Origin: a virus
Virus record (IMG/VR): IMGVR_UViG_3300022745_000023
Coordinates: 1 to 64,000 of that record
DNA: 64,000 nt
Direction: 5' to 3' (one strand)
The position numbers were made by a program, and so were the translations under genes. Numbering within the stretch: position 1 is the stretch's first letter; every line of letters starts with the position of its first letter. Below are positions 1 through 10,024 of this stretch, in pieces. Under the pieces are notes generated by a model that was given only the letters and a program-made list of their open reading frames with translations, was not told where the DNA came from and did no database searches.

Positions 1-249
1 ACCATTGGGGGGGGCACCATTGGGGGCGGCACCATTGAGGGCGGCACCATTGAGGGCGGCACCATTGAGGGCGGCACCATCTGGGGCGGCACCATCTGGG
101 GCGGCACCATCAGGGGCGGCACCATCTGGGGCGGCACCATTGAGGGCGGCACCATTGAGGGCGGCACCATTGAGGGCGGCACCATCAGGGGCGGCACCAT
201 CTGGGGCGGCACCATCAGGGGCGGCACCATTGAGGGCGGCACCATCAAG
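1..249 (+). repeat. 15-bp tandem repeat ACCATYNRGGGCGGC, 16 full copies plus a partial copy
   Basis: Directly visible, 4 units per 60-nt line. Confidence 0.97.
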
Positions 250-524: not shown

Positions 525-564
525 GAAATGCCGCGCTTTCCATATTGGATCGCGCGGCATTTTC
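525..564. terminator. Intrinsic terminator, possibly bidirectional
   Basis: AAATGCCGCGC / GCGCGGCATTT stem with A and T tracts on each side. Confidence 0.75.
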
Positions 565-580
565 ATACCTTATGGGTAAA
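564..580. promoter_or_regulatory. Putative repressor operator (TTTACC-N5-GGTAAA family)
   Basis: CATACC-TTATG-GGTAAA upstream of the early operon. Confidence 0.6.
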
Positions 581-658
581 CTTTCCTGTTGCGGTGATGT
601 GTAGATTGTCTTATTGGAGGGGCAAGGGCGATGCCCCTCTCTAGGCAAGGACCGCGAA

Positions 659-886
659 ATGCTCACTGTTCCCGAACTCCCTCATAACTGCAACTCTTGG
701 ATCATCGCCAAGGATGGTGAAGCCGTTCTTGAAACGTGGTCGCGCAAGGTGGTTGAAAACGCTGCCTGCGCGGCAAGGCCCGGCGTTGAAATCTTCACCG
801 CTGACCAGTGGCTTGCCCACGTAAATGCTGCCGAATACGAAGCCACGTTTTCCAGCCGCCGCGAATTTCCCAGCATGGAGTATTAA
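659..886 (+). CDS. Hypothetical early protein
   Basis: ATG at 659 after AAGGA; first gene of the operon. Confidence 0.6.
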   Translation: MLTVPELPHNCNSWIIAKDGEAVLETWSRKVVENAACAARPGVEIFTADQWLAHVNAAEYEATFSSRREFPSMEY

Positions 887-1317: not shown

Positions 1318-1475
1318 AGGACCGTATAACACCTCTCGCGCTTGCGTGGGAACTGGCACGCCTTCACTTCGCTGGTTGGCGCAGTAGGCCCGGCTATTCC
1401 GTTACCGCGCGCGAAAGTGATGGCTCGATCTACATTGCTATGTGGCTTGATCCGGTTGAAACAAGGAAAGACTGA
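1314..1475 (+). CDS. 53-aa hypothetical protein (not in the ORF track)
   Basis: GTGA overlap with the upstream stop, TGATG overlap with the MTase start, GGAG RBS. Confidence 0.6.
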   Translation: MKDRITPLALAWELARLHFAGWRSRPGYSVTARESDGSIYIAMWLDPVETRKD

Positions 1476-2926
1476 TGACCGAATCAACCGCACTCGCCAC
1501 GCTGGCCAACATTGATGATCTGGTGGCCGGGCGCAACAAGTCGGTGGGCCTCTGGATGAAGGCGTTCGACGACTTTCACGCCACCGCCAAGGAAGCGGCT
1601 GGCTGCTCCATCGGCGGGAATATCTCGTTTCATGTGCCGTCCAGTAGCCGCTATGACAACGGCGATCTGGCGCAAGCGTTTGCCAGTGGCAAGCGTGAAG
1701 ACTTTGTTCGCATCGTCGCGGAGGAAGTGGATCGGCGCTGCTGGCAGGGCCTCATGACGCAGCTTGGCTTTGACCAACTGCTCGACCGGCAGGCGCGCGA
1801 AGAGTTCCGGCAAAGCCTCAATGGGACGCCGCCGTTGTTCTCGGTCGATAACTGCGCGGCCACGTTTGGAGATATTTGGCTAAAGCGCCGCGAAATCTAT
1901 CTGCGCGGCATTGCCAATATTTTCATGGCGATGGACCGGCGCTTTCGCTCGCATGATGCCTTCGCCATCGGCAATCGGCTGATTATCGAGAATGCGCTGA
2001 ACATCGACGGGTGGTGGCACGACTATAACCGGCGCGACTCGCTGCATGATGTTGAGCGCACGTTCCGTGAACTAGATGGCAAGCTGCCCCTCTCGAACGA
2101 TCTGCACGCGAATTATGAGCGCCGACGCCATTGGGTGCCCGACATGCGCGATTGGGGCGTGGTCAAGCGTGTCTCGTGGCTGCTGGTCAACAAGACCCCG
2201 ACGCCGTTCGTCATGGAAACCGACTATTTTCGGGTCCGCGTGTTCGGCAACGGCAATATCCACCTGTGGTTCAAGCGCAAGGATCTGCTCGCGCAGGTGA
2301 ACGCGCTGCTGCTGGAATATTACAAGCCGCTTGAGGGTGATATGGGGGAAGGGCCGGATTATGAATCCGCGCCGCGTCCGCACGCCACCCCGGCAAAGAA
2401 TTTCGGCGCGTTCTTCTCGTCGCAGGAAGTAGCCGACCGCGTGATTGATCTGGCCTGCATCCGTAAGGGCGATCTGGTGCTTGAGCCGTCCGCTGGCTCC
2501 GGGGTTCTGGCCGACGCGGCGCGCGAAAAGGGCGCAACCGTGCATTGCGTTGAGGTGCAGGAGCAATGGGCCGCCGTGTTGGAAAGTAAGGGGCATTCTG
2601 TGCGCCGGGCCGACTTCTTCGATGTGTCTCCAACGCCGGTCTATGACCGGATCGTGATGAATCCGCCCTTTGATCGAGGCCGCGATTGCGACCATGTGAT
2701 GCAGGCATACAAGTTCCTCAAGCCGGGCGGGACGCTGGTTGCTGTCATGTCGGCCCGCGCCGAATATGCGACCGATGGGCGGCATAAGGCGCTCCACGAC
2801 CTGATTAAGCAGGCGCGCGGCAAGTGGGCCTCCCCCAACTGGTACACGCTGCCCGAGCGCTCGTTCGCGCACGCCGGGACCAACGTCAACACGGTCATGC
2901 TGCGAATCGAGAAGCCTCATGCTTGA
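1475..2926 (+). CDS. DUF4942-type class I SAM-dependent DNA adenine methyltransferase
   Basis: VLEPSAGSG (motif I), IVMNPPF (motif IV); N-terminal domain ending RVFGNGNIHLWF. Confidence 0.88.
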   Translation: MTESTALATLANIDDLVAGRNKSVGLWMKAFDDFHATAKEAAGCSIGGNISFHVPSSSRYDNGDLAQAFASGKREDFVRIVAEEVDRRCWQGLMTQLGFDQLLDRQAREEFRQSLNGTPPLFSVDNCAATFGDIWLKRREIYLRGIANIFMAMDRRFRSHDAFAIGNRLIIENALNIDGWWHDYNRRDSLHDVERTFRELDGKLPLSNDLHANYERRRHWVPDMRDWGVVKRVSWLLVNKTPTPFVMETDYFRVRVFGNGNIHLWFKRKDLLAQVNALLLEYYKPLEGDMGEGPDYESAPRPHATPAKNFGAFFSSQEVADRVIDLACIRKGDLVLEPSAGSGVLADAAREKGATVHCVEVQEQWAAVLESKGHSVRRADFFDVSPTPVYDRIVMNPPFDRGRDCDHVMQAYKFLKPGGTLVAVMSARAEYATDGRHKALHDLIKQARGKWASPNWYTLPERSFAHAGTNVNTVMLRIEKPHA

Positions 2927-3167
2927 ACTTGATCTGAAAATCAGCCTTCACCTTCGCCGCCTTCGCAAGCGCGAGTTACATGATGACGGGCCGTGCTGGC
3001 ATGGGATAGCCAGCATCCGGCAGGCGGCGGGCCTGCCCAAGACCAAGGAAGGGAAGGCCGCTGCACGCGCCGCGCTCGACCGATTGATTGCCGCTGGCCA
3101 TGTTAAGCGCGCCATCGAAGGCAACGGTCATTACATGGTGGTCGGCCCGGATTACATCATGGTTTGA
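2919..3167 (+). CDS. Small winged-helix-like protein
   Basis: AALDRLIAAGHV pattern; overlaps MTase stop. Confidence 0.55.
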   Translation: MLELDLKISLHLRRLRKRELHDDGPCWHGIASIRQAAGLPKTKEGKAAARAALDRLIAAGHVKRAIEGNGHYMVVGPDYIMV

Positions 3168-3234: not shown

Positions 3235-3299
3235 CTGTCGTCAGACAGTCCCTCTCCTTGGGTCGCGGAAGCCCTCGGTGTCACAGCCGGGGGCTTTTT
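3235..3299 (+). ncRNA. Candidate ~65-nt small regulatory RNA with an anti-Shine-Dalgarno seed
   Basis: TTGCAC-17-CATAGC promoter (3201-3229), 5' hairpin CTGTC-GTCA-GACAG, seed CCCTCTCCTTGGGT, terminator 3269-3299. Confidence 0.55.
3269..3299 (+). terminator. Intrinsic terminator
   Basis: AAGCCCTCGG-loop-CCGGGGGCTTTTT. Confidence 0.8.
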
Positions 3300-3312
3300 C
3301 TCAAGGATGATC

Positions 3313-3402
3313 GGGCGGGTGGCCGAGTGATTTAAGGTAGCGGTCTTGAAAACCGCCGTGGGCTTACGTCCACCGTGGGTTTGAATCCCACCCCGCCCGC
3401 CA
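3313..3402 (+). tRNA. trnS: tRNA-Ser(TGA)
   Basis: GGGCGGG/CCCGCCC acceptor, GCGGT-CTTGAAA-ACCGC anticodon arm, long variable arm, G73 plus encoded CCA. Confidence 0.95.
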
Positions 3403-3443
3403 ATTCTCATTTTGAAAAAAATGCGCCGCCTGCGAAATTGCGC

Positions 3444-3472
3444 TTGCAATGTAGGAACGATGTTCCTAAAAG
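3444..3472 (+). promoter_or_regulatory. Sigma70-like promoter with a perfect 17-bp palindromic operator
   Basis: TTGCAA-17-TAAAAG; TAGGAAC-GAT-GTTCCTA at 3452-3468. Confidence 0.75.
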
Positions 3473-3516
3473 GGCGCTACAAGGTGCGATGCACCGCCTC
3501 ACGAAGGAAGATCGAA

Positions 3517-3870
3517 ATGACCACTTACACCATCCTCGATACTGACGGCTCCGTCCTCGAACGCGGCGTTACTCTCGCGGAAGCCGCCGATGCCATCATG
3601 ACCAGCGATAGCTGCGAATGGGTCATTCGCATGGGGGAACCCGGCTACTACACCGCGTGGGGCCGGCAGCAAGTGGCCAATCGCTCGTGGGAACCCACCA
3701 TCTTCACGGCTTATAACGCCGACAGTGAGGATGCCGCTTGCGACGCCATCTACACGCAGATCGTCAATCACCTGCGTATGCCCTGTCACTGCGAGGCCAT
3801 GACCGATGCGGATTATGACGAGATGATGGCGCAGGTGGCTATCGACAACGGCGAAGGCGATGAGGATTGA
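3517..3870 (+). CDS. Small highly acidic protein (candidate anti-defence protein)
   Basis: 117 aa, 23 D/E versus 5 R and 0 K; AAGGAAG RBS. Confidence 0.75.
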   Translation: MTTYTILDTDGSVLERGVTLAEAADAIMTSDSCEWVIRMGEPGYYTAWGRQQVANRSWEPTIFTAYNADSEDAACDAIYTQIVNHLRMPCHCEAMTDADYDEMMAQVAIDNGEGDED

Positions 3871-3873
3871 GCC

Positions 3874-4206
3874 ATGACCAACATCACCCACACGCCAGCG
3901 CCTTGGAATGCTTTTGGCGTCGTCAAGTGCTGCTCCATGTGTGATGGCGAGGGTGTCATTGCCTCGCACCGCCGCCCCACCATCGACGATCCGTTTCCCC
4001 AAGATGACTGCGAATGCGGCTTGGGGAAGCATGAAGCCGAATGCGAGGTGTGCGGCTTCAATCAGGTCACTGCCGGCGCTGATTGCCTTGTCTGCGACAT
4101 GGTGGCGAACCTGCATGACCACGAGGTTCGCGCCCTGAATGTAGATGCCTTCACCAAGGCCTTGACGGTCGCCGTGGCCGCCGCCCGCGCTCAAATAGCC
4201 AAATGA
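3874..4206 (+). CDS. Cys-rich Zn-finger-like protein
   Basis: CSMC, CEC, CEVC, CLVC motifs. Confidence 0.7.
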   Translation: MTNITHTPAPWNAFGVVKCCSMCDGEGVIASHRRPTIDDPFPQDDCECGLGKHEAECEVCGFNQVTAGADCLVCDMVANLHDHEVRALNVDAFTKALTVAVAAARAQIAK

Positions 4207-4260
4207 TCCGACAGCGCCCGCGCTTTCGCGGCGCGGTCCACACAACAAGGGAAAGAGTCA

Positions 4261-4569
4261 ATGGAAAACATGAAGCACACGCCGGGGCCTTGGCGGCTCA
4301 ACGCCGGCAATGAAACAGAAATTATGTCCGCGCGTCGTAACGTGGCCCGCGCTCATTGCGGGGCGATGACCGGTATCCGGGTCGACGAGGCCGAGGCCAA
4401 CGCCCGCCTAATCGCCGCCGCGCCCGACTTGCTGGCGGCTTGTGAGGCGCTTTTGCAAAGCGTCGCCTATGCCATCGCCGCGCAGGATGCGCCAGCGCAA
4501 TCCACCATGCGCGCTAATCTGGCCAATGCGCTCGCCGCCATCGCCAAAGCCAAGGGGGCGGTGCTGTGA
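4261..4569 (+). CDS. Conserved phage protein (KHTPGPW...ANARLIAAAPDLL family)
   Basis: Widespread phage motif. Confidence 0.85.
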   Translation: MENMKHTPGPWRLNAGNETEIMSARRNVARAHCGAMTGIRVDEAEANARLIAAAPDLLAACEALLQSVAYAIAAQDAPAQSTMRANLANALAAIAKAKGAVL

Positions 4570-4700
4570 CCGGCCCCCGCCGTATGACGCGCGACGAATG
4601 GTTCGGCCTCGCCTGCGTTGTCCTCATGGCCATCACGCCGCCCCTCGTGGGCTGGGCGTTCGGCCACCCGCAACCCAAGCACATGGAGGCTGCACGATGA
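4566..4700 (+). CDS. 44-aa single-TM protein (not in the ORF track)
   Basis: GTGA and ATGA overlaps with both neighbours; WFGLACVVLMAITPPLVGWAF. Confidence 0.6.
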   Translation: MTGPRRMTRDEWFGLACVVLMAITPPLVGWAFGHPQPKHMEAAR

Positions 4701-4906
4701 CGCCTGCCACTATCGCCGCAATTCGCAAGAAGGCCGGGTTTTCGCAGTCCAAACTCGCCGCAATGCTGGGCCTGTCTGATAGCCGCACCGTTCGGCATTG
4801 GGAGAACGGGACGCGGGAGATTAGCGGCCCCGCCTCGATCCTCATGGAAATGCTGGATCGCGGGGAAATCCCGGCGCGCTATCTGATCGGTGGAGGTGAA
4901 GTTTAA
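4697..4906 (+). CDS. XRE-family HTH regulator (Aca-like position)
   Basis: IRKKAGFSQSKLAAMLG..RTVRHWENG; GGAGG RBS; last gene of the operon. Confidence 0.88.
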   Translation: MTPATIAAIRKKAGFSQSKLAAMLGLSDSRTVRHWENGTREISGPASILMEMLDRGEIPARYLIGGGEV

Positions 4907-4920
4907 CTTCCCCCGGCTTG

Positions 4921-4943
4921 GTCGTGACTGCACCTTACGGGCA
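4921..4943 (+). promoter_or_regulatory. Late promoter GTCGTGAC-N3-A-N3-T; +1 on the ATG
   Basis: Motif starts 22 nt before ATG 4943. Confidence 0.8.
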
Positions 4944-7900
4944 TGGATCAGTGCCCGGTAACAATGGAGCCAGTCGGCTCCAATTCTGTCTCTGCCGCGC
5001 TCGCAAGTTCGGGCTGTGAGTGGCGATATGTTCCCTTCGACCGCGAAGGCTGGGAAGGCCAGTTCCCAAACGCCTCGGTATCAACGCCTCTGGGGGAAGT
5101 GGAGATTGCCCCGGAGCGCATTGAAATGCCGGACGTTGGCCTGTCCCTGATCGGCCTGATCCGCCCTGTTCTCGAAAACCCCACCTATGCGGTAAAGCGT
5201 GACAATTCACTCGCGTTTCACCGCCCGGTGATCGGAACCGAGGGGGAAGTAAGGGGCTACGCCACCGTCAACATTCACCCCGATAGGGTGCGTGTCTATG
5301 TGGCGGAACAGCCCGAGGACTTCGACCTGCTCTCGCCCGACGCCACCGGCTCTATGGTGGCCGATGAAGATGGTGATGGCCGGGCCACCTTCAAGTCGTT
5401 CATCTACCGGCATGGGGGTAACGGGGATAACGCTCTGGGGGGTAACTCGGGCGGGGGTAACGAACCTATTGTTGCCGTTACCTCCTTCGACGTCGCCGTA
5501 ACCCTGCTGGGAATTGGCGGCGATCTGCTCAAAGCGGATCACGGCCCCATCCCCGCCGACGCGCGCTGGATCACGGTCCACCCCAACGGGGAGGGAAGCA
5601 AGGGACAGCCCATCCTCGTCGTGCCCGCTGGCGACAAATCCGGCACCTTCCGCGTGATCGGCGGCGCGGGCGGCAAACTCAACATGATGAAGCTGCGCGG
5701 AGTGAAGTCCGAGGCGGATTACAAGGCCGAGTTCGGCGCGCGCGCAAAGGCAAGGCGCGTCTCCAAGAAGGAGCAAGCCCGAAAGGACAAGGAGCTTGGA
5801 ATCGACAAAGCCAAGGCCGAAGCCCGCGATGCCATCCGCAAGCAGCGTACCGAAGCGCAGAAAGCATTCATCAAAACCGTGGCCGAGGCTATGGGGTGGG
5901 GTGATGATGATCTGAAAATGCAGACGAACGGCCTTTCGGAAACGGCGGTAAAAAAGGCGGAAGCGGCGCATCACGCTGATTTGTTGGCAAAAGCCAAGGC
6001 GGCGATTGAGACGCAGCGCAAGATCCTTGTGACTGATTTAGACAAGCGGCTCGCGGCTGGGCTGGGAACGGTCCCGCTCGATGCGCCTATGTCTGAACTG
6101 TCGGTGCAGGATTTGGACCCTGTTCGCATTCCTGATTCGTCGGGGGTTTCGCCTGATTTCAAGGCGCGGGCGGAGGCGAACGGCCTGACGCCTGAAAAGC
6201 TGGATTCTGAACAGGCCAAGGTGCAGGCGCAGGAGGCGGGGGAAGCCCCGGACCCGGCGAAGGCATTGGAGCGCGGGAAGGTGGCCGAGGCGATCCGCAA
6301 GGAGGTAGCCAAGGCGCTGCCAAAGCCTGACCTGCAAGTCTCGATTGCGGATGCCAAGAAGGCGGTGGCGCTTATCAAGGCGCGCAAGCAGCTTCTTGCG
6401 CTGGAAAAGGCGGCGCGGGAGGCGAATGCGGAGGTGGATGCCTCGACTGTCGAGCCGAAGGCCTATGTTCTGAAAGTCTCGGAAACTGGCGATGATGAAG
6501 TGGCGGCGCAGGTGGTTGATGATCTGCGGACGGCGCGCGCGGCGGCGTTTCTGGCTGGCGTGGAAGGGGCTGGCGGTGAAAACGAGGTCCAGCCGCATAT
6601 CAGCGCCGGGGCTTACAACGCGATCAACGCGCTCTCGCAAATCACTGGTGGCGCTTCGCTGATTGATCGGTCTGTCGTTGATGTGCTTGGGGTGGCCGGC
6701 GCCGCGCAAGTGGTGGCAAACCGGCTGCACGCGGAATACGGGGGCGACGCGCAGAAGGTAGCGGCTGGGCTTGCTGAATATCATGTGGCCAGCGCGCCGG
6801 AGGATCAGAAGGCGGCGCTCGATCAGGCCAAGGAATTGCAGGATGAGGCGGCGAAGATCGAAGTGGACGAGGCCAACTCGACCGCTGACTTGGCTGTCGC
6901 ATCGGCCCTGAACCGCAAGCGGCTCGAATATCTGGCCGACGCGCGCAAGGTGCTGGGGCAAACCCTCGGCCATATGGAGGCGAATGCCTCGCTTATCGCG
7001 GCGCTGGAAGCTGGCCCGCGCGATGGCCTTGAGGTGTCTCTCGGGCGAACGCCTCTTGAGTCGGCCATCAAGCAGCTTTGGGCCATCGGCTTGACCGATG
7101 ATGATTACTCGATTGAGCGCATCGACGGGAATGTTTTCGCCAAGGTCAATGCGGATGGCATGGCCAAGCTGGCCGCCCCGGTGGACAAGGAAAACCTTGA
7201 GCGGGTGAACCGCAACCTCGGCATCATGCAAGGCGATCAGGACGAAGATGATTGGCTTCCCGCTGGATTCGCCCGTAGGCCCGATCTGGGGCTTGATCTG
7301 AAACCGGGTGTGGCTCCGGGCCTGTCCGTGCCGTTTGACGCCTCTGCGCCCGATCTGGCGGCTTCTCTGCGCGCCTATATCGGCTCTCGCACCGCCGATG
7401 GCGACCGGGCGGCTGATGTGCTGTCCGATGTGCAGTCTGCATCCTTTTTCCAAAAGGTCGGGCCGGGGCGCGCCAAGGAATACATGGCCGCGCTGAATGC
7501 GGTGATCCCGACCAAGAACGGCAAGAGCCTCACGCGCGTTGAAGAACTGGCCCCGGTGTTCGACGGGTATGCCGATGAGTTTGTGCAATCCAAGTGGGGC
7601 GGCACGCGCTCGACGCTGAACAAGCAATCCTTCGAGCCGGATGCCATCGCACAAGAGGCGCTGCACCGCGCTCTGTCCGATGAACCGGCTGGGACGCTGG
7701 CTTATAAGCCGATTGGGGAACTGTCGCCCAAGGACCGGCACGCGCTGCGCGATTGGTTCTATCGAAACATTGCCAAGGAATCGCCTGAACAGGCCGAATT
7801 GCGCGCGCACGCCGAAAAGCTGGCCGAGCAGGAGCCGGAAAAGTTCACGACCGATATGTTCGGGGACACCACAGCCAACCCGGCGTGGAACGATTGGAAA

Positions 7901-10024
7901 GCCGAATACGACGCAGCGCAGGGCAAGGTCAATGACGCCTCCCTCGACTGGAACCGCTATAGCAAGATGCTGCGTGGCAATGTCCGGGCGCTGGAAACCG
8001 TGCAAGACCTGATCCGCTCGCGCGTCTCGGAAAACTTCGCCAAGCATCACAACACGCTTCGCCCGAATGCCGCGCTCAAGGTCGGCACAACCGTTGTGCG
8101 GAACAACCTCAACCATCTGTCGGCCACGGACCCGGTGGAGCGGGAAAAGCGCCTGTCGATGGAGCGAAGCCTCATTGACGGCCTGCGCGCGCGCATCAAG
8201 GGCAAATATGCGGGTGGGTCTGTCGCGGACAAGATCGAGGCTACCAAGGCTTATGAGGCCGCGTTCAATCAGGCACAAATGGGATTCTTCGCCTCCGATG
8301 ATCTGTTCGGCGGGGAAGGGGGCGAGAAGCCTCTGGGCGGGGATGAGCGCCGCACCATCGGCCATGCCGCCGAAAACATGATCGGCAAGATGATGGGTGT
8401 GGTCGGGGGGCAGTTCAAGCCGGGCCAGCCGGTGAAGCTGTTCAACCCGTCTATGTCCGGCAAGGGCGTGAACCGTCAGCGCGCGATCAAGATGATCGGG
8501 CAGAACAAGCGCGTGATCCTCGCGGCGGGGGTCGGTAGTGGCAAGACCGGGATGATGATGGGCGCGTTCTCAGACCTGCACTCCAAGGGGCAGGCCAAGA
8601 AGGGCTTGTTTGTCGTGCCGTCCATTGTGCAGGGGCAGTTCGGCGCGGAGGCGCTGCGCTTCCTCGAACCCGGCAAGTTCAAATGGCACGCTGAACCGGG
8701 CGCGTCGTATCAAGAGCGGCTGGCCGCGTACAAAGACCCGGACACCCATTTTTCGGTGGTGACGCACCAGTCGTTTCGTGACGATGTGCTTCGCATGGCG
8801 GTTGACGCGGGTATGGGGAAGTCGCCCGAGGCGGTGGCCGACGCGCTGGCGGGCATGGATGATGCCGGGCAGGCTAAGTTCGTCAAGTCGGTGCTGGATC
8901 ATCACGGCGTGGCCTTCGACTTCACGGCGGCGGATGAGGCCCACAACCTGCTGGACCGGGAAGGCAAGGAAGACTCGCGCATGTCGAACGTGATCGGCGG
9001 CGTGACGGCCAATGCTCCCTATTACGTCCATGCCTCCGGCGACCCGGTGAAGAATGACGCCTCCGAAGCCTTTTCGCTGCTGCAAAAGATGGACCCGGCC
9101 CGGTATAACGACCGGGGCGCGTTCATGCGGCGCTATGGCGGCGACACGCTGGCGGCGAAGGAGGGCCTGCAACGTGAACTGGCACGCCATCAATTTTCGT
9201 TCTCGCTCTCGCCTGATGTGAAGGTGGATCGTTCCGAGGTGTCGATCAAGCCGTCTGATGCTCAACAAGCCGCTCTGGCAACGCTGGAAAAGCAGGCGGC
9301 GGCGCTCCGTATCGCCAAGATGACGGGCAAGGTCGATGTGGACGCGGCTAAGGCTCTGTCGCCTCACCTATTCGAGGGCGCCGATGAAGGCCAGCATGAA
9401 GCCATCGCGCGCAAGGTCGCGGATTCGGTCGGCATTATCAAGCAATCGGCCTACCGGCGCATTCTCGACGCGCATCCGGCGGCGGCAAAGCTGTCGCACG
9501 TTGCCGAGGCGGCGGCGGCGCGCAAGGGCAAGCCCGGCGTGGTGTTCGCGCACTCGCTGGAAGCTGTTGAAGCAATCCGCAAGCGGCTGGAAGCGGATGG
9601 CCATCGGGTGACGACGCTCACCGGCAAGGACTCGTCTGGCGATAAGGCCGACAAGATCCGCGCGTTCAACCCGGATAAGGGTGAAGCCAAGGCCGACATT
9701 ATCGTCTGCTCTGATGCTGGCGCGACTGGCGCGAACCTGCAATCTGGCCGATGGCTGGTGCAATACGACACGCCCGATACCGCGATGGTTCACGCTCAAA
9801 GGGCGGGCCGCATCAACCGCATCGGGCAAAAGAACGCGCTGGAATTGATCGACCTCGTTTCGGATCATCCATCCGATGCGCGCGCCCGGCGCCGGCTGGC
9901 GAACAAATACGACCTGCGCGAACTTCTCACCTCGCCGCTCGATGGGCTTGATGACACGCCCCTTGCTTATGCGCTAAAGCAGGCTGGATTCGGGCAGTCG
10001 AAACAACAGGCATCGCTTTTCTAA
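4943..10024 (+). CDS. Large polyvalent protein with C-terminal SNF2/SF2 helicase; probable head cargo
   Basis: AAGVGSGKT, AADEAH, ASGDP, DAGATGANLQ, QRAGRINRIGQ; N-terminal TPLGEV..IRPVLENP (PBECR-like). Confidence 0.88.
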   Translation: MDQCPVTMEPVGSNSVSAALASSGCEWRYVPFDREGWEGQFPNASVSTPLGEVEIAPERIEMPDVGLSLIGLIRPVLENPTYAVKRDNSLAFHRPVIGTEGEVRGYATVNIHPDRVRVYVAEQPEDFDLLSPDATGSMVADEDGDGRATFKSFIYRHGGNGDNALGGNSGGGNEPIVAVTSFDVAVTLLGIGGDLLKADHGPIPADARWITVHPNGEGSKGQPILVVPAGDKSGTFRVIGGAGGKLNMMKLRGVKSEADYKAEFGARAKARRVSKKEQARKDKELGIDKAKAEARDAIRKQRTEAQKAFIKTVAEAMGWGDDDLKMQTNGLSETAVKKAEAAHHADLLAKAKAAIETQRKILVTDLDKRLAAGLGTVPLDAPMSELSVQDLDPVRIPDSSGVSPDFKARAEANGLTPEKLDSEQAKVQAQEAGEAPDPAKALERGKVAEAIRKEVAKALPKPDLQVSIADAKKAVALIKARKQLLALEKAAREANAEVDASTVEPKAYVLKVSETGDDEVAAQVVDDLRTARAAAFLAGVEGAGGENEVQPHISAGAYNAINALSQITGGASLIDRSVVDVLGVAGAAQVVANRLHAEYGGDAQKVAAGLAEYHVASAPEDQKAALDQAKELQDEAAKIEVDEANSTADLAVASALNRKRLEYLADARKVLGQTLGHMEANASLIAALEAGPRDGLEVSLGRTPLESAIKQLWAIGLTDDDYSIERIDGNVFAKVNADGMAKLAAPVDKENLERVNRNLGIMQGDQDEDDWLPAGFARRPDLGLDLKPGVAPGLSVPFDASAPDLAASLRAYIGSRTADGDRAADVLSDVQSASFFQKVGPGRAKEYMAALNAVIPTKNGKSLTRVEELAPVFDGYADEFVQSKWGGTRSTLNKQSFEPDAIAQEALHRALSDEPAGTLAYKPIGELSPKDRHALRDWFYRNIAKESPEQAELRAHAEKLAEQEPEKFTTDMFGDTTANPAWNDWKAEYDAAQGKVNDASLDWNRYSKMLRGNVRALETVQDLIRSRVSENFAKHHNTLRPNAALKVGTTVVRNNLNHLSATDPVEREKRLSMERSLIDGLRARIKGKYAGGSVADKIEATKAYEAAFNQAQMGFFASDDLFGGEGGEKPLGGDERRTIGHAAENMIGKMMGVVGGQFKPGQPVKLFNPSMSGKGVNRQRAIKMIGQNKRVILAAGVGSGKTGMMMGAFSDLHSKGQAKKGLFVVPSIVQGQFGAEALRFLEPGKFKWHAEPGASYQERLAAYKDPDTHFSVVTHQSFRDDVLRMAVDAGMGKSPEAVADALAGMDDAGQAKFVKSVLDHHGVAFDFTAADEAHNLLDREGKEDSRMSNVIGGVTANAPYYVHASGDPVKNDASEAFSLLQKMDPARYNDRGAFMRRYGGDTLAAKEGLQRELARHQFSFSLSPDVKVDRSEVSIKPSDAQQAALATLEKQAAALRIAKMTGKVDVDAAKALSPHLFEGADEGQHEAIARKVADSVGIIKQSAYRRILDAHPAAAKLSHVAEAAAARKGKPGVVFAHSLEAVEAIRKRLEADGHRVTTLTGKDSSGDKADKIRAFNPDKGEAKADIIVCSDAGATGANLQSGRWLVQYDTPDTAMVHAQRAGRINRIGQKNALELIDLVSDHPSDARARRRLANKYDLRELLTSPLDGLDDTPLAYALKQAGFGQSKQQASLF

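What the first reader, a model, noticed from the sequence alone, without database searches (positions are those of the whole stretch)
3444..4906. acr/aca-like autoregulated operon: palindrome-controlled promoter, small orphan proteins, terminal HTH
Seen: a promoter with a perfect TAGGAAC-GAT-GTTCCTA palindrome in its spacer (different from the CI operator), then a very acidic 117-aa protein, a Cys-rich protein, a HTPGPW-family protein, a 44-aa TM peptide and a 69-aa XRE HTH. Established: anti-CRISPR operons have this layout, with Aca binding inverted repeats in the promoter. Inference: a new anti-defence cassette, with 3517-3870 as the best DNA-mimic candidate.
Basis: partly seen in the sequence, partly recalled or inferred. 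Interest (0 to 1): 0.7.

Follow-up and report, generated by a model that had tools for sequence, protein, structure and literature searches.

The report
Self-regulated phage cassette with swappable cargo
This phage carries a small operon built like the anti-CRISPR (acr-aca) operons of other phages: a conserved promoter with a repressor-type palindrome, a conserved hairpin in the mRNA leader, unknown small "cargo" genes, and a final DNA-binding regulator; related phages keep the promoter and regulator but swap the cargo, so the cargo proteins are credible though untested inhibitors of bacterial immunity.

Summary
Every feature sits at the stated coordinates. The palindrome alone is not above chance: the window has 12 perfect 7-3-7 palindromes. 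Comparison makes it meaningful.

The 69-aa HTH has relatives in 65 IMG/VR loci, phage Pan3 and one MAG. In 46 of the 65 loci a homologous ~120-nt leader lies upstream. Its order is an A/T tract, -35, a 17-nt spacer palindrome, -10, a 5-bp hairpin about 13 nt later, RBS and ATG.
- 16 of 36 distinct spacers hold a perfect palindrome with arms of 5 or more (about 5% expected).
- The hairpin pairs in 94.7% of cells, and 4 of 5 pairs show compensatory changes.
- Palindrome type follows HTH clade.

Between leader and HTH the cargo turns over almost completely: 60 proteins fall into 49 clusters, and 0 of 49 scanned have a Pfam hit.

The HTH models as a dimer. It is closest to Aca3 (profile E 3e-8), Aca10 and the DNA-binding domains of HigA2 and MqsA. 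This matches the architecture published for Aca1, Aca2, Aca10 and Aca12.

Not shown: repression, any anti-defence activity, or DNA mimicry by ORF1. ORF1 and ORF3 are not orphans. The scan has met acr-aca-like cassettes on other DNA before.

The parts
3269..3303 (+). Terminator-like hairpin (AAGCCCTCGG...CCGGGGGCTT) plus T run. It closes the upstream methyltransferase unit and marks the left boundary of the cassette region.
   Evidence: Inverted repeat I6; sequence. Not found by the consensus scan, so weak.
3313..3402 (+). Phage-encoded tRNA-Ser (anticodon TGA), immediately upstream of the cassette promoter. Context, not part of the operon.
   Evidence: ARAGORN; Rfam tRNA 54.6 bits.
3405..3443 (+). 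Conserved upstream block of the leader: A tract GAAAAAAA (3414-3421) followed by TGCGCCGCCTGCGAAATTGCGC. It is homologous to the 'A/T tract + GTGCATTTT' block of related loci. An UP-element-like role is inferred.
   Evidence: nhmmer E 2.7e-25 for 3405-3522; alignment A4.
3444..3449 (+). -35 hexamer TTGCAA.
   Evidence: Sequence. Columns T45, T46 and G47 are invariant or nearly invariant in A4. The strict consensus scan did not call this promoter.
3452..3468 (+). Perfect palindrome TAGGAAC-GAT-GTTCCTA, filling the 17-nt spacer and overlapping the first two bases of the -10. Proposed operator for the HTH dimer.
   Evidence: unique in the genome. 16 of 36 distinct spacers of related loci have perfect palindromes with arms of 5 or more, against about 5% in controls. 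It is a compensatory variant of TAGGACC-AAT-GGTCCTA in L059/L045. Palindrome class follows HTH clade.
3467..3472 (+). -10 hexamer TAAAAG. The transcription start is predicted near 3479-3481.
   Evidence: Sequence; aligned with TATAAG/TATATC/TAGAAG of related loci. The start site is inferred.
3483..3495 (+). 5'UTR hairpin or second palindrome GGTGC-GAT-GCACC. It is the window's version of the family consensus GGGGC-AnT-GCCCC, with a compensatory G>T/C>A pair.
   Evidence: the count of structure pairs on A4: 94.7% of cells paired, 4 of 5 pairs with changes on both sides, 0 of 500 shuffles reach it. It is the MFE hairpin, but the folding energy alone is not significant (z -0.46).
3503..3510 (+). 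Ribosome-binding site GAAGGAAG, 6 nt before the ORF1 ATG.
   Evidence: The hairpin-to-ATG distance is 17-23 nt in all 38 leaders.
3517..3870 (+). Cargo 1: acidic 117-aa protein (pI 4.05) of a widespread uncharacterised family.
   Evidence: 14 homologues at 51-91% identity. 368 clusters at E<=0.001 in the profile search. Family pI median 4.4. AF2 pLDDT 89.4, pTM 0.81. No clear fold match. No Pfam/PHROG/PADLOC hit.
3874..4206 (+). Cargo 2: 110-aa Cys-rich protein with an HTPAPW N-terminus and four CxxC-type pairs including CxxCxGxG. Probably a zinc-binding module.
   Evidence: It shares only the first 16 residues with the ORF3 family (hhalign). Only weak DnaJ-zinc-finger-like structural leads with TM <= 0.36. 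No PDB sequence match.
4261..4569 (+). Cargo 3: 102-aa member of the HTPGPW...ANARLIAAAPDLL family (PF27050, phrog_1273). Function unknown.
   Evidence: phrog_1273 at E 4.3e-20. More than 2352 homologues, all tagged PF27050. Alignment A8. No PDB match.
4566..4700 (+). Cargo 4: 44-aa peptide with one hydrophobic helix and a GTG start, translationally coupled on both sides (GTGA, ATGA). A real gene is likely but unproven.
   Evidence: GC3 0.82. Small hydrophobic cargo also occurs in L037 and L033. No homologues were sought.
4697..4906 (+). Terminal 69-aa XRE-type HTH, the proposed autorepressor (Aca-like). The family motif SGP(A/V)S(I/L)LME forms the predicted dimer interface.
   Evidence: PF01381 at E 1.2e-8. 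65 viral loci. Profile against PDB: Aca3 3.1e-8, Aca10 (7xi5) 3.4e-5, Aca2 5e-3. Foldseek: HigA2 C-terminal domain TM 0.76-0.80, MqsA C-terminal domain 0.74-0.77, Aca10 0.69/0.82. Homodimer score 0.55 against best control 0.01.
4943..10024 (+). Neighbour: 1693-aa SF2/SNF2-type helicase (phrog_62), starting 36 nt after the HTH stop. Co-transcription with the cassette is possible but untested.
   Evidence: A terminator-like hairpin at 4965-4982 lies inside its annotated 5' end.

Best explanation
The region 3405-4906 is one self-contained accessory operon of the acr-aca type.

Proposed mechanism:
1. A host-type (sigma-70-like) promoter fires on entry and transcribes four cargo genes and then a small XRE HTH gene.
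2. The HTH accumulates and dimerises.
3. The dimer binds the palindrome that fills the -35/-10 spacer (3452-3468) and shuts the promoter.
4. A conserved 5-bp hairpin or second palindrome at about +4 of the mRNA (3483-3495), 21 nt before the start codon, is either a second operator or an RNA site for the same protein. It would then work like the Aca1/Aca2 RNA motifs, giving translational control or mRNA-end protection.
5. The conserved leader and the conserved HTH gene act as homologous flanks, between which phages exchange unrelated small genes.
6. The cargo most likely acts on the host early in infection, with counter-defence the leading candidate.

Shown:
- Conservation of leader and HTH.
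- Selection for palindromy and for pairing.
- Cargo turnover.
- A predicted dimer.
- Kinship to Aca-type and antitoxin-type HTH domains.

Inferred:
- The transcription start.
- Binding and repression by the HTH.
- Any RNA binding.
- All cargo functions.
For: (1) Spread of the HTH. Relatives lie in 65 IMG/VR loci, in Pseudanabaena phage Pan3 and in a Cellvibrionaceae MAG.

(2) Conserved leader. nhmmer with a 5-sequence seed finds a homologous ~120-nt leader upstream, on the same strand, in 46 of the 65 loci at E <= 2e-4. Six of the loci without a hit are cut by a contig end less than 260 nt upstream. Alignment A4 holds 38 distinct copies.

(3) Spacer palindrome. 16 of 36 distinct spacers carry perfect palindromes with arms of 5 or more. 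The expectation is 5.0% in shuffles and 4.5% in random windows, binomial p about 1e-12. The window's site differs from TAGGACC-AAT-GGTCCTA (L059/L045) by a mirrored double change.

(4) Leader hairpin. 94.7% of cells are paired, 4 of 5 pairs have compensatory changes, the covariation score is 0.176 against 0.053 in shuffles, 0 of 500 shuffles reach it, and all slid controls score lower. Spacing is fixed: 13-14 nt after the -10 in 31 of 38 leaders, and 19-21 nt before the ATG in 32 of 38.

(5) Operator and regulator vary together. Palindrome class changes 6 times on the HTH tree, against a mean of 16.7 and a minimum of 13 in 300 label shuffles.

(6) Cargo turnover. There are 1-2 genes in most loci, with a median length of 65.5 aa. 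Sixty cargo proteins form 49 BLASTP clusters. Of the 49 scanned, none hits Pfam and 2 hit PHROGs of unknown function.

(7) Multi-copy leaders. L027 has four tandem leaders sharing the half-site ATGGGGC/GCCCCAT and an identical hairpin ahead of one HTH gene. L051 has two near-identical leaders. This matches the multi-operon control reported for Aca proteins (PMC13551039, section 22).

(8) HTH homodimer. Score 0.55, best of 3 controls 0.01. That mark was reached by 20 of 30 proteins solved as pairs and 1 of 23 solved as single chains. The runs agree in at least 95% of contacts, and partner pLDDT is at least 81. The interface is residues 24-26 and 43-62, which covers the family's invariant SGPxS motif. 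XRE dimers are common in the PDB, so this pass may reflect likeness to solved structures.

(9) Nearest solved relatives. By profile: Aca3 3.1e-8, then PezA 2.3e-5 and Aca10 3.4e-5. By fold: HigA2 C-terminal domain, C-proteins, MqsA C-terminal domain, Aca2 and Aca10.

(10) Published match. For Aca1/2/10/12 operons the paper reports a DNA inverted repeat overlapping the promoter, a transcription start 10-15 nt downstream, an RNA hairpin directly after the start, and a start codon at a conserved position. It also reports a DEAD/DEAH helicase directly downstream of aca2 (PMC13551039, sections 19, 21, 22).
Against: - No binding, repression or transcription-start data exist.
- The consensus promoter scan did not call this promoter.
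- The window's two palindromes (AGGAAC/GTTCCT and GGTGC/GCACC) share only the GAT centre. One protein binding both is therefore not obvious.
- One HTH clade (L005, L040, L042, L044, L065, L067, L068) has no clear spacer palindrome.
- The hairpin's folding energy is not better than that of shuffles (z -0.46).
- The link between palindrome class and HTH clade may reflect shared descent of closely linked DNA rather than co-adaptation.
- No cargo protein resembles any known Acr or anti-defence family.
- Cargo pI has a median of 8.7, not the acidic bias typical of many Acrs.
- The HTH is not shown to belong to a validated Aca family. The Aca3 match covers only residues 2-37.
- The host and its defence systems are unknown.
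Confidence: 0.6

Rival explanations
1. Ordinary early or 'moron' accessory operon. The HTH is a general phage regulator that does repress this promoter, but the cargo serves other purposes, such as host takeover, superinfection exclusion, lysogeny or replication accessories, rather than counter-defence.
For: - Cargo pI is mostly basic, median 8.7.
- No similarity to any anti-defence family.
- The cassette usually sits at a module boundary just upstream of terS/terL/portal, a classic slot for morons of all kinds.
- An ORF1 relative in L009 lies between the lysis genes and the integrase, without this HTH.
- ORF3's family is very abundant, also in bacterial chromosomes such as Shinella oryzae.
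Against: Extreme turnover of tiny unannotated genes under a conserved autoregulatory frame is the signature by which anti-defence genes have repeatedly been found (PMC9410906, PMC13551039). In this window the cassette is flanked by a DUF4942 methyltransferase and a giant SF2 helicase, both of which are gene types found in counter-defence contexts.
Confidence: 0.25
2. Reverse-order type II toxin-antitoxin module of the HigBA/MqsRA kind. The small upstream gene or genes are toxins, and the HTH is the autorepressing antitoxin.
For: - The HTH's best fold matches are the HigA2 and MqsA DNA-binding domains.
- NCBIfam's MqsA-family model is the best hit, 2.3e-8, though below its cut-off.
- The gene upstream overlaps the HTH start.
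- A palindrome in the promoter is typical of TA autoregulation.
- ORF4 and some other cargo are small hydrophobic peptides.
Against: - The protein consists of the DNA-binding domain only. It aligns to residues 40-92 of the 103-residue HigA2 chain and to positions 65-119 of the 127-position MqsA-family profile, so it has no toxin-neutralising extension.
- 0 of 49 cargo proteins match any toxin family in Pfam.
- The 49 clusters among 60 cargo proteins, and the 1-4 cargo genes per locus, do not fit a cognate toxin-antitoxin pair.
Confidence: 0.07
3. The palindrome and hairpin are not operators. The conserved leader is only a strong promoter with an mRNA-stabilising 5' stem-loop, and the HTH acts elsewhere, for example on late or packaging genes downstream.
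For: - G-U-compatible variants occur in the hairpin (one G-U cell; L035).
- One HTH clade lacks a spacer palindrome.
- The HTH is often directly upstream of packaging genes.
- A weak, palindrome-less copy of the leader lies at 540-660 of the window.
Against: - The spacer is not transcribed from this promoter, yet it is palindromic far above chance, which points to a dimeric DNA binder.
- Palindrome class follows HTH clade.
- Copies within one genome share the same palindrome half-sites (L027, L051).
- In the window the HTH is not next to packaging genes.
Confidence: 0.08

Closest known systems
acr-aca operons with dual DNA/RNA control (Aca1 of phage JBD30; Aca2 of phage ZF40; predicted for Aca10 and Aca12). 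Feussner et al., NAR 2026, PMC13551039; Shehreen et al., NAR 2022, PMC9410906.
   Same: - A strong sigma-70-type promoter with an inverted repeat overlapping it.
- A hairpin starting a few nucleotides after the predicted transcription start and ending about 20 nt before a start codon at a fixed distance.
- One to several small variable genes, then a small HTH gene last.
- Extra copies of the leader in front of neighbouring operons (L027, L051).
- A helicase gene directly after the regulator, as reported for some aca2 operons.
   Different: - The HTH is not a demonstrated member of Aca1-14.
- No cargo gene is a known acr.
- No binding or repression has been measured.
- The hairpin is shorter (5 bp, 3-nt loop) than the ~20-nt Aca1 RNA motif.
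- The window carries four cargo genes, more than any related locus apart from the multi-promoter L027.
Aca3 (Neisseria meningitidis, acrIIC operon; 70 aa, HTH_3; PDB 9vt3)
   Same: - Same size class, same Pfam HTH_3 type and an MqsA-like fold class.
- It is the best solved-structure match to the family profile, E 3.1e-8, about 9 bits above the next hit.
- About 38% identity over 37 N-terminal residues with the window protein (alignment).
   Different: - The match covers only residues 2-37.
- The family-defining C-terminal SGPxSxLMEMLD dimer motif was not aligned to Aca3.
- The single-sequence E-value is only 0.003.
- Associated Acrs, hosts and operator sequence could not be compared.
Aca10 (PDB 7xi5; acrIC7-acrIC6-aca10 of Pseudomonas citronellolis, as named in an earlier scan note and PMC13551039)
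   Same: Foldseek TM 0.69/0.82, rmsd 1.1 A over 52 residues, 35% identity. Profile E 3.4e-5. Aca10 operons are also reported to have a covarying DNA motif plus an RNA hairpin.
   Different: The sequence match is weaker than to Aca3. No shared operator or cargo was shown.
HigA2 and MqsA antitoxin DNA-binding domains (type II TA systems)
   Same: These are the best fold matches: HigA2 C-terminal domain TM 0.76-0.80, rmsd 2.1 A over 64 residues, 30% identity; MqsA C-terminal domain TM 0.74-0.77. Like them, the gene lies downstream of its partner gene, and autorepression through a palindrome is expected.
   Different: It lacks the toxin-neutralising N-terminal part. The upstream genes are not recognisable toxins and differ in nearly every locus.

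Membership tests
acr-aca operon (functional class) | Small gene(s) directly upstream of, and co-oriented with, a small HTH gene in one operon | tested here: met
   ORF1-ORF4 and the HTH are all on the + strand, with gaps of 3, 54, -4 and -4 nt. The same layout occurs in all related loci.
acr-aca operon (functional class) | Inverted repeat overlapping the operon promoter | tested here: met
   Site 3452-3468 in the spacer. Palindromy is enriched across 36 distinct spacers: 44% against about 5%.
acr-aca operon (functional class) | Conserved RNA hairpin directly after the transcription start in the 5'UTR (described for Aca1, Aca2, Aca10, Aca12) | tested here: met
   Site 3483-3495. 94.7% of cells paired, 4 of 5 pairs compensatory, 0 of 500 shuffles. 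The transcription start is predicted only.
acr-aca operon (functional class) | The regulator belongs to a validated Aca family (Aca1-14) | tested here: inconclusive
   Profile against PDB: Aca3 3.1e-8, Aca10 3.4e-5, Aca2 4.7e-3. Aca1 scored 0.04 with the single sequence. No Aca HMM library or family thresholds were available.
acr-aca operon (functional class) | At least one upstream gene is a known or demonstrated anti-CRISPR | tested here: not met
   No Pfam, PHROG, NCBIfam, PADLOC or PDB sequence match to any Acr for the window cargo. 0 of 49 family cargo proteins hit Pfam. Activity itself cannot be tested with these tools.
acr-aca operon (functional class) | The regulator binds the repeat and represses the promoter | not testable with these tools
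   Indirect support only: the dimer prediction and the association of palindrome class with HTH clade.
Aca3 family | Full-length sequence homology to N. meningitidis Aca3 | tested here: inconclusive
   It is the best PDB hit, but only over residues 2-37. Single-sequence E is 0.0031; profile E is 3.1e-8.
XRE/HTH_3 DNA-binding domain (PF01381) | Match above Pfam's gathering score | tested here: met
   35.3 bits against a cut-off of 23. The AF2 model has four helices and pLDDT 88.
Type II TA antitoxin (HigA2/MqsA type) | A toxin-neutralising domain in addition to the HTH domain | tested here: not met
   The 69-aa protein aligns only to the DNA-binding part: residues 40-92 of the 103-residue HigA2 chain, and positions 65-119 of the 127-position MqsA-family model, at 33.9 bits against a cut-off of 61.8.
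Type II TA antitoxin (HigA2/MqsA type) | The upstream gene is a recognisable toxin | tested here: not met
   0 of 49 cargo proteins match Pfam at E <= 0.001. The cargo falls into 49 clusters.
DNA-mimic anti-restriction proteins (Ocr/ArdA type), for ORF1 | Strongly acidic protein | tested here: met
   pI 4.05, net charge -18. Family median pI 4.4, net charge -11.
DNA-mimic anti-restriction proteins (Ocr/ArdA type), for ORF1 | Fold or charge pattern resembling a known DNA mimic | tested here: inconclusive
   No Foldseek match at E <= 0.001 in PDB or BFVD. The best VIA-align Z is 5.4, a dsRBD-like alpha-beta-beta-beta-alpha core; T7 Gp1.2 scores Z 5.1. The surface charge pattern was not analysed.
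PF27050 / phrog_1273 (HTPGPW...ANARLIAAAPDLL proteins), for ORF3 | Profile match over the full length | tested here: met
   phrog_1273 at E 4.3e-20, residues 1-100. PF27050 is precomputed for the window protein and all 120 listed homologues. My Pfam copy gave no hit.

The most novel reading that the evidence does not exclude
This is a previously unrecognised Aca family, a distant relative of Aca3/Aca10 marked by the SGPxSxLMEMLD dimer motif. It would control its operon both at a spacer operator and at a leader RNA hairpin. Its conserved flanks would serve as a recombination scaffold that has captured more than 45 unrelated families of small proteins, so the cargo would be a rich untapped set of new inhibitors of bacterial immunity. 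That set includes the widespread acidic ORF1 family and the very abundant PF27050 family.
Probability: 0.3. Interest if true: 0.72.

Novelty: new member of a known kind. Interest (0 to 1): 0.55.

Why it matters
Conserved Aca-type regulators are the main handle by which new anti-CRISPR and anti-defence proteins have been found. This work defines one such handle in three parts.
- A regulator family with 65 or more phage loci.
- A leader motif about 120 nt long, with a covarying DNA palindrome and an RNA-capable hairpin.
- About 49 families of unknown small proteins sitting in the regulated slot.

If the HTH proves to be an autorepressor, the leader model can be used to mine further regulated operons, including those without the HTH gene, as in L027. 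The cargo list then becomes a ranked candidate set for counter-defence screens. It would also give the first functional context to two widespread families of unknown function: the acidic ORF1 family and PF27050.

Tried and rejected
The long contigs holding ORF1 homologues P0005, P0006, P0010 and P0013 could therefore not be inspected.
- ORF1 relatives were sought in viral contigs three times, with the single protein, A1 and A6, and once in genome contigs. None was found. A3 was too diverse for the tool. The metagenome scan gave only L009 and L010.
- tblastn against the deposited phages found nothing for ORF1 or ORF3. blastn of the region matched only the tRNA.
- Fold searches for ORF1 gave no clear match. 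Foldseek found nothing in PDB or BFVD. VIA-align wide gave Z <= 5.4 (dsRBD-like core, T7 Gp1.2), below the level that means more than a common arrangement. ESM Atlas gave only sub-threshold leads, including a RecT/Rad52-like hit at TM 0.56 on a poor Atlas model.
- ORF2: Atlas gave only weak DnaJ zinc-finger leads, and there was no PDB match.
- Rfam has no family for the leader.
- The consensus promoter/terminator scan did not call the promoter. It found one terminator-like site, inside the helicase 5' end.
- The chance level of the palindrome alone was tested and found unremarkable.
- The idea that the conserved leader is a pac/cos site next to terS was rejected. The reasons are its fixed -35/-10/RBS/ATG spacing, its position far from the packaging genes in this window, and its four tandem copies in L027.
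- A second copy of the leader in this genome was sought. Only a weak, palindrome-less match turned up, at 556-658 (E 0.026).
Full report
**What is there.** The window is the first 64 kb of an 89,634-bp IMG/VR virus record, linear and rated 98% complete.

A methyltransferase unit occupies 1475-3167. It contains a DUF4942 + MTase protein. After it come:
- a terminator-like hairpin with a T run at 3269-3303;
- a phage tRNA-Ser at 3313-3402;
- the region of the finding.

- -35 TTGCAA at 3444-3449.
- The perfect palindrome TAGGAAC-GAT-GTTCCTA at 3452-3468, inside a 17-nt spacer.
- -10 TAAAAG at 3467-3472.
- ORF1 at 3517-3870: 117 aa, pI 4.05.
- ORF2 at 3874-4206: 110 aa, 9 Cys.
- ORF3 at 4261-4569: HTPGPW motif, phrog_1273 at 4e-20.
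- ORF4 at 4566-4700: 44 aa, hydrophobic, with GTGA and ATGA overlaps.
- The HTH at 4697-4906: PF01381 at 1.2e-8.

A 1693-aa SF2 helicase starts 36 nt later.

**Is the palindrome more than chance?** On its own it is not. The window holds 12 perfect 7-3-7 palindromes and 50 with spacers of 0-6 nt. The site is unique in the genome. The consensus promoter scan did not call this promoter. The case therefore rests on comparison.

**Comparative evidence, regulator.** The HTH has few close relatives among predicted proteins. An alignment-based scan nonetheless found 65 viral loci. Relatives also occur in Pseudanabaena phage Pan3 (58.7% identity) and in a Cellvibrionaceae MAG.

**Comparative evidence, leader.** Reading five of these loci showed that the DNA upstream of each mini-operon is itself homologous.
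- An nhmmer profile of those five finds the same ~120-nt leader, same strand, upstream of the HTH in 46 of the 65 loci at E <= 2e-4. Six more match weakly.
- Six of the loci without a hit are cut by a contig end less than 260 nt upstream.
- Thirty-eight distinct copies align (A4) in this order: A/T tract, GTGCATTTT-like block, -35 (TTGAC/TTGCA), spacer, -10 (TATAAG-like), 13-14 nt, hairpin GGGGC-AnT-GCCCC, 19-21 nt, RBS, ATG.

**Selection on the two symmetric elements.**
- *Spacer.* 16 of 36 distinct spacers have a perfect palindrome with arms of 5 or more. The expectation is 5.0% in shuffles and 4.5% in random windows of the same loci, p about 1e-12 without correction for relatedness. Many others miss by one base. 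The sequences differ between clades: GGGCC-AAT-GGCCC, TAGGACC-AAT-GGTCCTA, GGACA-NNN-TGTCC, ATGGGGC-GCGAT-GCCCCAT. The window's site is TAGGACC-AAT-GGTCCTA with a mirrored C>A/G>T double change.
- *Why this points to a protein.* This DNA is not transcribed from the promoter it sits in. Symmetry there therefore points to a dimeric DNA-binding protein.
- *Hairpin.* It is paired in 94.7% of cells. Four of five pairs show changes on both sides. The covariation score is 0.176 against 0.053, 0 of 500 shuffles reach it, and every slid control is lower. The window's version is GGTGC-GAT-GCACC at 3483-3495. It is the MFE structure of the leader, but its energy alone is unremarkable.
- *Association with the regulator.* Palindrome class follows HTH clade: 6 changes on the HTH tree against at least 13 in 300 shuffles. 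Relatedness of linked DNA can produce this without co-adaptation.
- *Exception.* One clade, with RSTIHRWATG in the recognition region, lacks a clear spacer palindrome.

**Cargo.** Between leader and HTH most loci carry one or two genes of 48-168 aa, and the last one usually overlaps the HTH start by ATGA.
- Sixty cargo proteins fall into 49 BLASTP clusters.
- Of the 49 scanned, none hits Pfam and 2 hit PHROGs of unknown function.
- Median pI is 8.7, with a third below 6.
- The window, with four genes over 1175 nt, has the largest cargo, apart from L027.
- L027 has four tandem copies of the leader, each before its own small genes, and one HTH gene at the end. L051 has a second leader after the HTH.
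- In other phages the cassette typically sits just before the packaging genes: three different terS families, terL and portal. Here it lies between a methyltransferase unit and a helicase. It therefore behaves as a movable unit.

**The regulator.**
- The AF2 model (pLDDT 88) is a four-helix XRE domain.
- Foldseek ranks the HigA2 C-terminal domain first (TM 0.76-0.80). Restriction-modification C-proteins, the MqsA C-terminal domain, Aca2 and Aca10 (35% identity over 52 residues) follow.
- By sequence profile the best solved relative is Aca3 (3.1e-8, residues 2-37). It is well ahead of PezA and Aca10.
- The protein is the DNA-binding domain only. It aligns to residues 40-92 of HigA2 and to positions 65-119 of the MqsA-family model.
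- A homodimer prediction scored 0.55 against a best control of 0.01. That mark was reached by 20 of 30 proteins solved as pairs and 1 of 23 solved as single chains. The runs agree in at least 95% of contacts, and partner pLDDT is at least 81.
- The interface is built by the family's invariant SGPxSxLME segment. Such dimers are well represented among solved structures, so the pass may reflect that likeness.

**The window's cargo.**
- *ORF1* is not an orphan. It has 14 close homologues and 368 clusters at 50% identity in a profile search. The family is acidic throughout, with median pI 4.4.
- Its model is confident (pLDDT 89.4, pTM 0.81) but has no clear structural relative. The best resemblance is a dsRBD-like alpha-beta-beta-beta-alpha core at Z <= 5.4.
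- Two relatives with context were found. One lies after another promoter with a 10-3-10 palindrome (L010). The other lies between lysis genes and an integrase (L009). Neither is next to this HTH.
- The DNA-mimic idea is therefore neither supported nor excluded.
- *ORF3* belongs to PF27050/phrog_1273, with more than 2352 homologues.
- *ORF2* shares only the HTPxPW start with that family. It has four CxxC-type pairs.
- *ORF4* was not examined beyond its coding signal.

**Comparison with what is known.** Feussner et al. (NAR 2026, PMC13551039, sections 18-22) describe the following for Aca1, Aca2, Aca10 and Aca12 operons:
- a DNA inverted repeat overlapping the promoter;
- a transcription start 10-15 nt downstream;
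- an RNA hairpin directly after the start;
- a start codon at a conserved position;
- control of neighbouring operons by extra motif copies;
- DEAD/DEAH helicases just downstream of aca2.

Shehreen et al. (PMC9410906) list Aca3 as a 70-aa HTH_3 protein whose closest structure is MqsA. They also note the kinship of several Aca families to HigA2-type antitoxins. The present cassette matches this architecture point by point. What is missing is membership of the regulator in a validated Aca family (inconclusive), any known acr among the cargo (not met), and all functional data.

**Verdict.**
- The acr/aca-like reading is supported for architecture and likely regulation.
- The anti-defence function remains a reasoned guess.
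- I rate it a new member of a known kind.
- Earlier notes of this scan report similar cassettes on other genomes, so the type is recurrent. The value here lies in the well-defined leader motif and the large, diverse cargo set.

Noticed in passing
window 540-661: A weak second copy of the leader (nhmmer E 0.026). It has a GCGGCATTTT block, TTGCGG-17-TATTGG, then the hairpin AGGGGC-N9-GCCCCT, an RBS and an ATG at 659 for a 75-aa ORF with no Pfam hit. It has no spacer palindrome.
   Followed up: partly
window 1-245: A 15-nt tandem repeat (ACCATTGGGGGCGGC), 16.3 copies at 92% matches, at the very left end of the linear virus record. It could be a terminal or packaging-related repeat, or an assembly artefact.
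   Followed up: no
window 1475-2926 and 4943-10024: The cassette is bracketed by a DUF4942 + N6-MTase protein and a 1693-aa SF2/SNF2 helicase (phrog_62). The MTase part of the first protein matches the MTase regions of giant phage proteins of up to 3431-3925 aa, and PADLOC mad2 at 3e-18. Together these look like a split version of the large methyltransferase-helicase proteins of phages and plasmids.
   Followed up: partly
window 4207-4260: A GC-rich hairpin (MFE -17 kcal/mol, z -0.86) in the only real intergenic gap of the operon, between ORF2 and ORF3. Hairpins between genes of acr-aca operons are mentioned in PMC13551039, but this one is unlike the leader hairpin.
   Followed up: partly
window 4965-4992: A terminator-like stem-loop (7 bp, loop 4) followed by ATTCTGTCTCT. 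It lies 22 nt inside the annotated start of the helicase ORF. The true helicase start may therefore be further downstream, and the cassette may terminate here.
   Followed up: no
L027:1-3213: Four tandem copies of the leader sharing the half-site ATGGGGC/GCCCCAT (5-nt centre GCGAT, GCTAT or GTGAT) and an identical hairpin. Each precedes small genes, among them a DUF3489 protein and a zinc-ribbon protein. A single HTH gene sits at the far end. This looks like a multi-operon regulon.
   Followed up: partly
L010:555-600: An ORF1 relative sits behind a different promoter. That promoter is preceded by a perfect 10-3-10 palindrome, GTATATAATT-GGG-AATTATATAC, abutting the -35 TTGACT. ORF1-family genes may thus also be cargo of other repressor-controlled cassettes.
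   Followed up: no
L066:1916-2053 (minus strand): A reversed copy of the leader with a different, imperfect spacer repeat and an altered hairpin. It faces away from the HTH cassette of the same contig.
   Followed up: no
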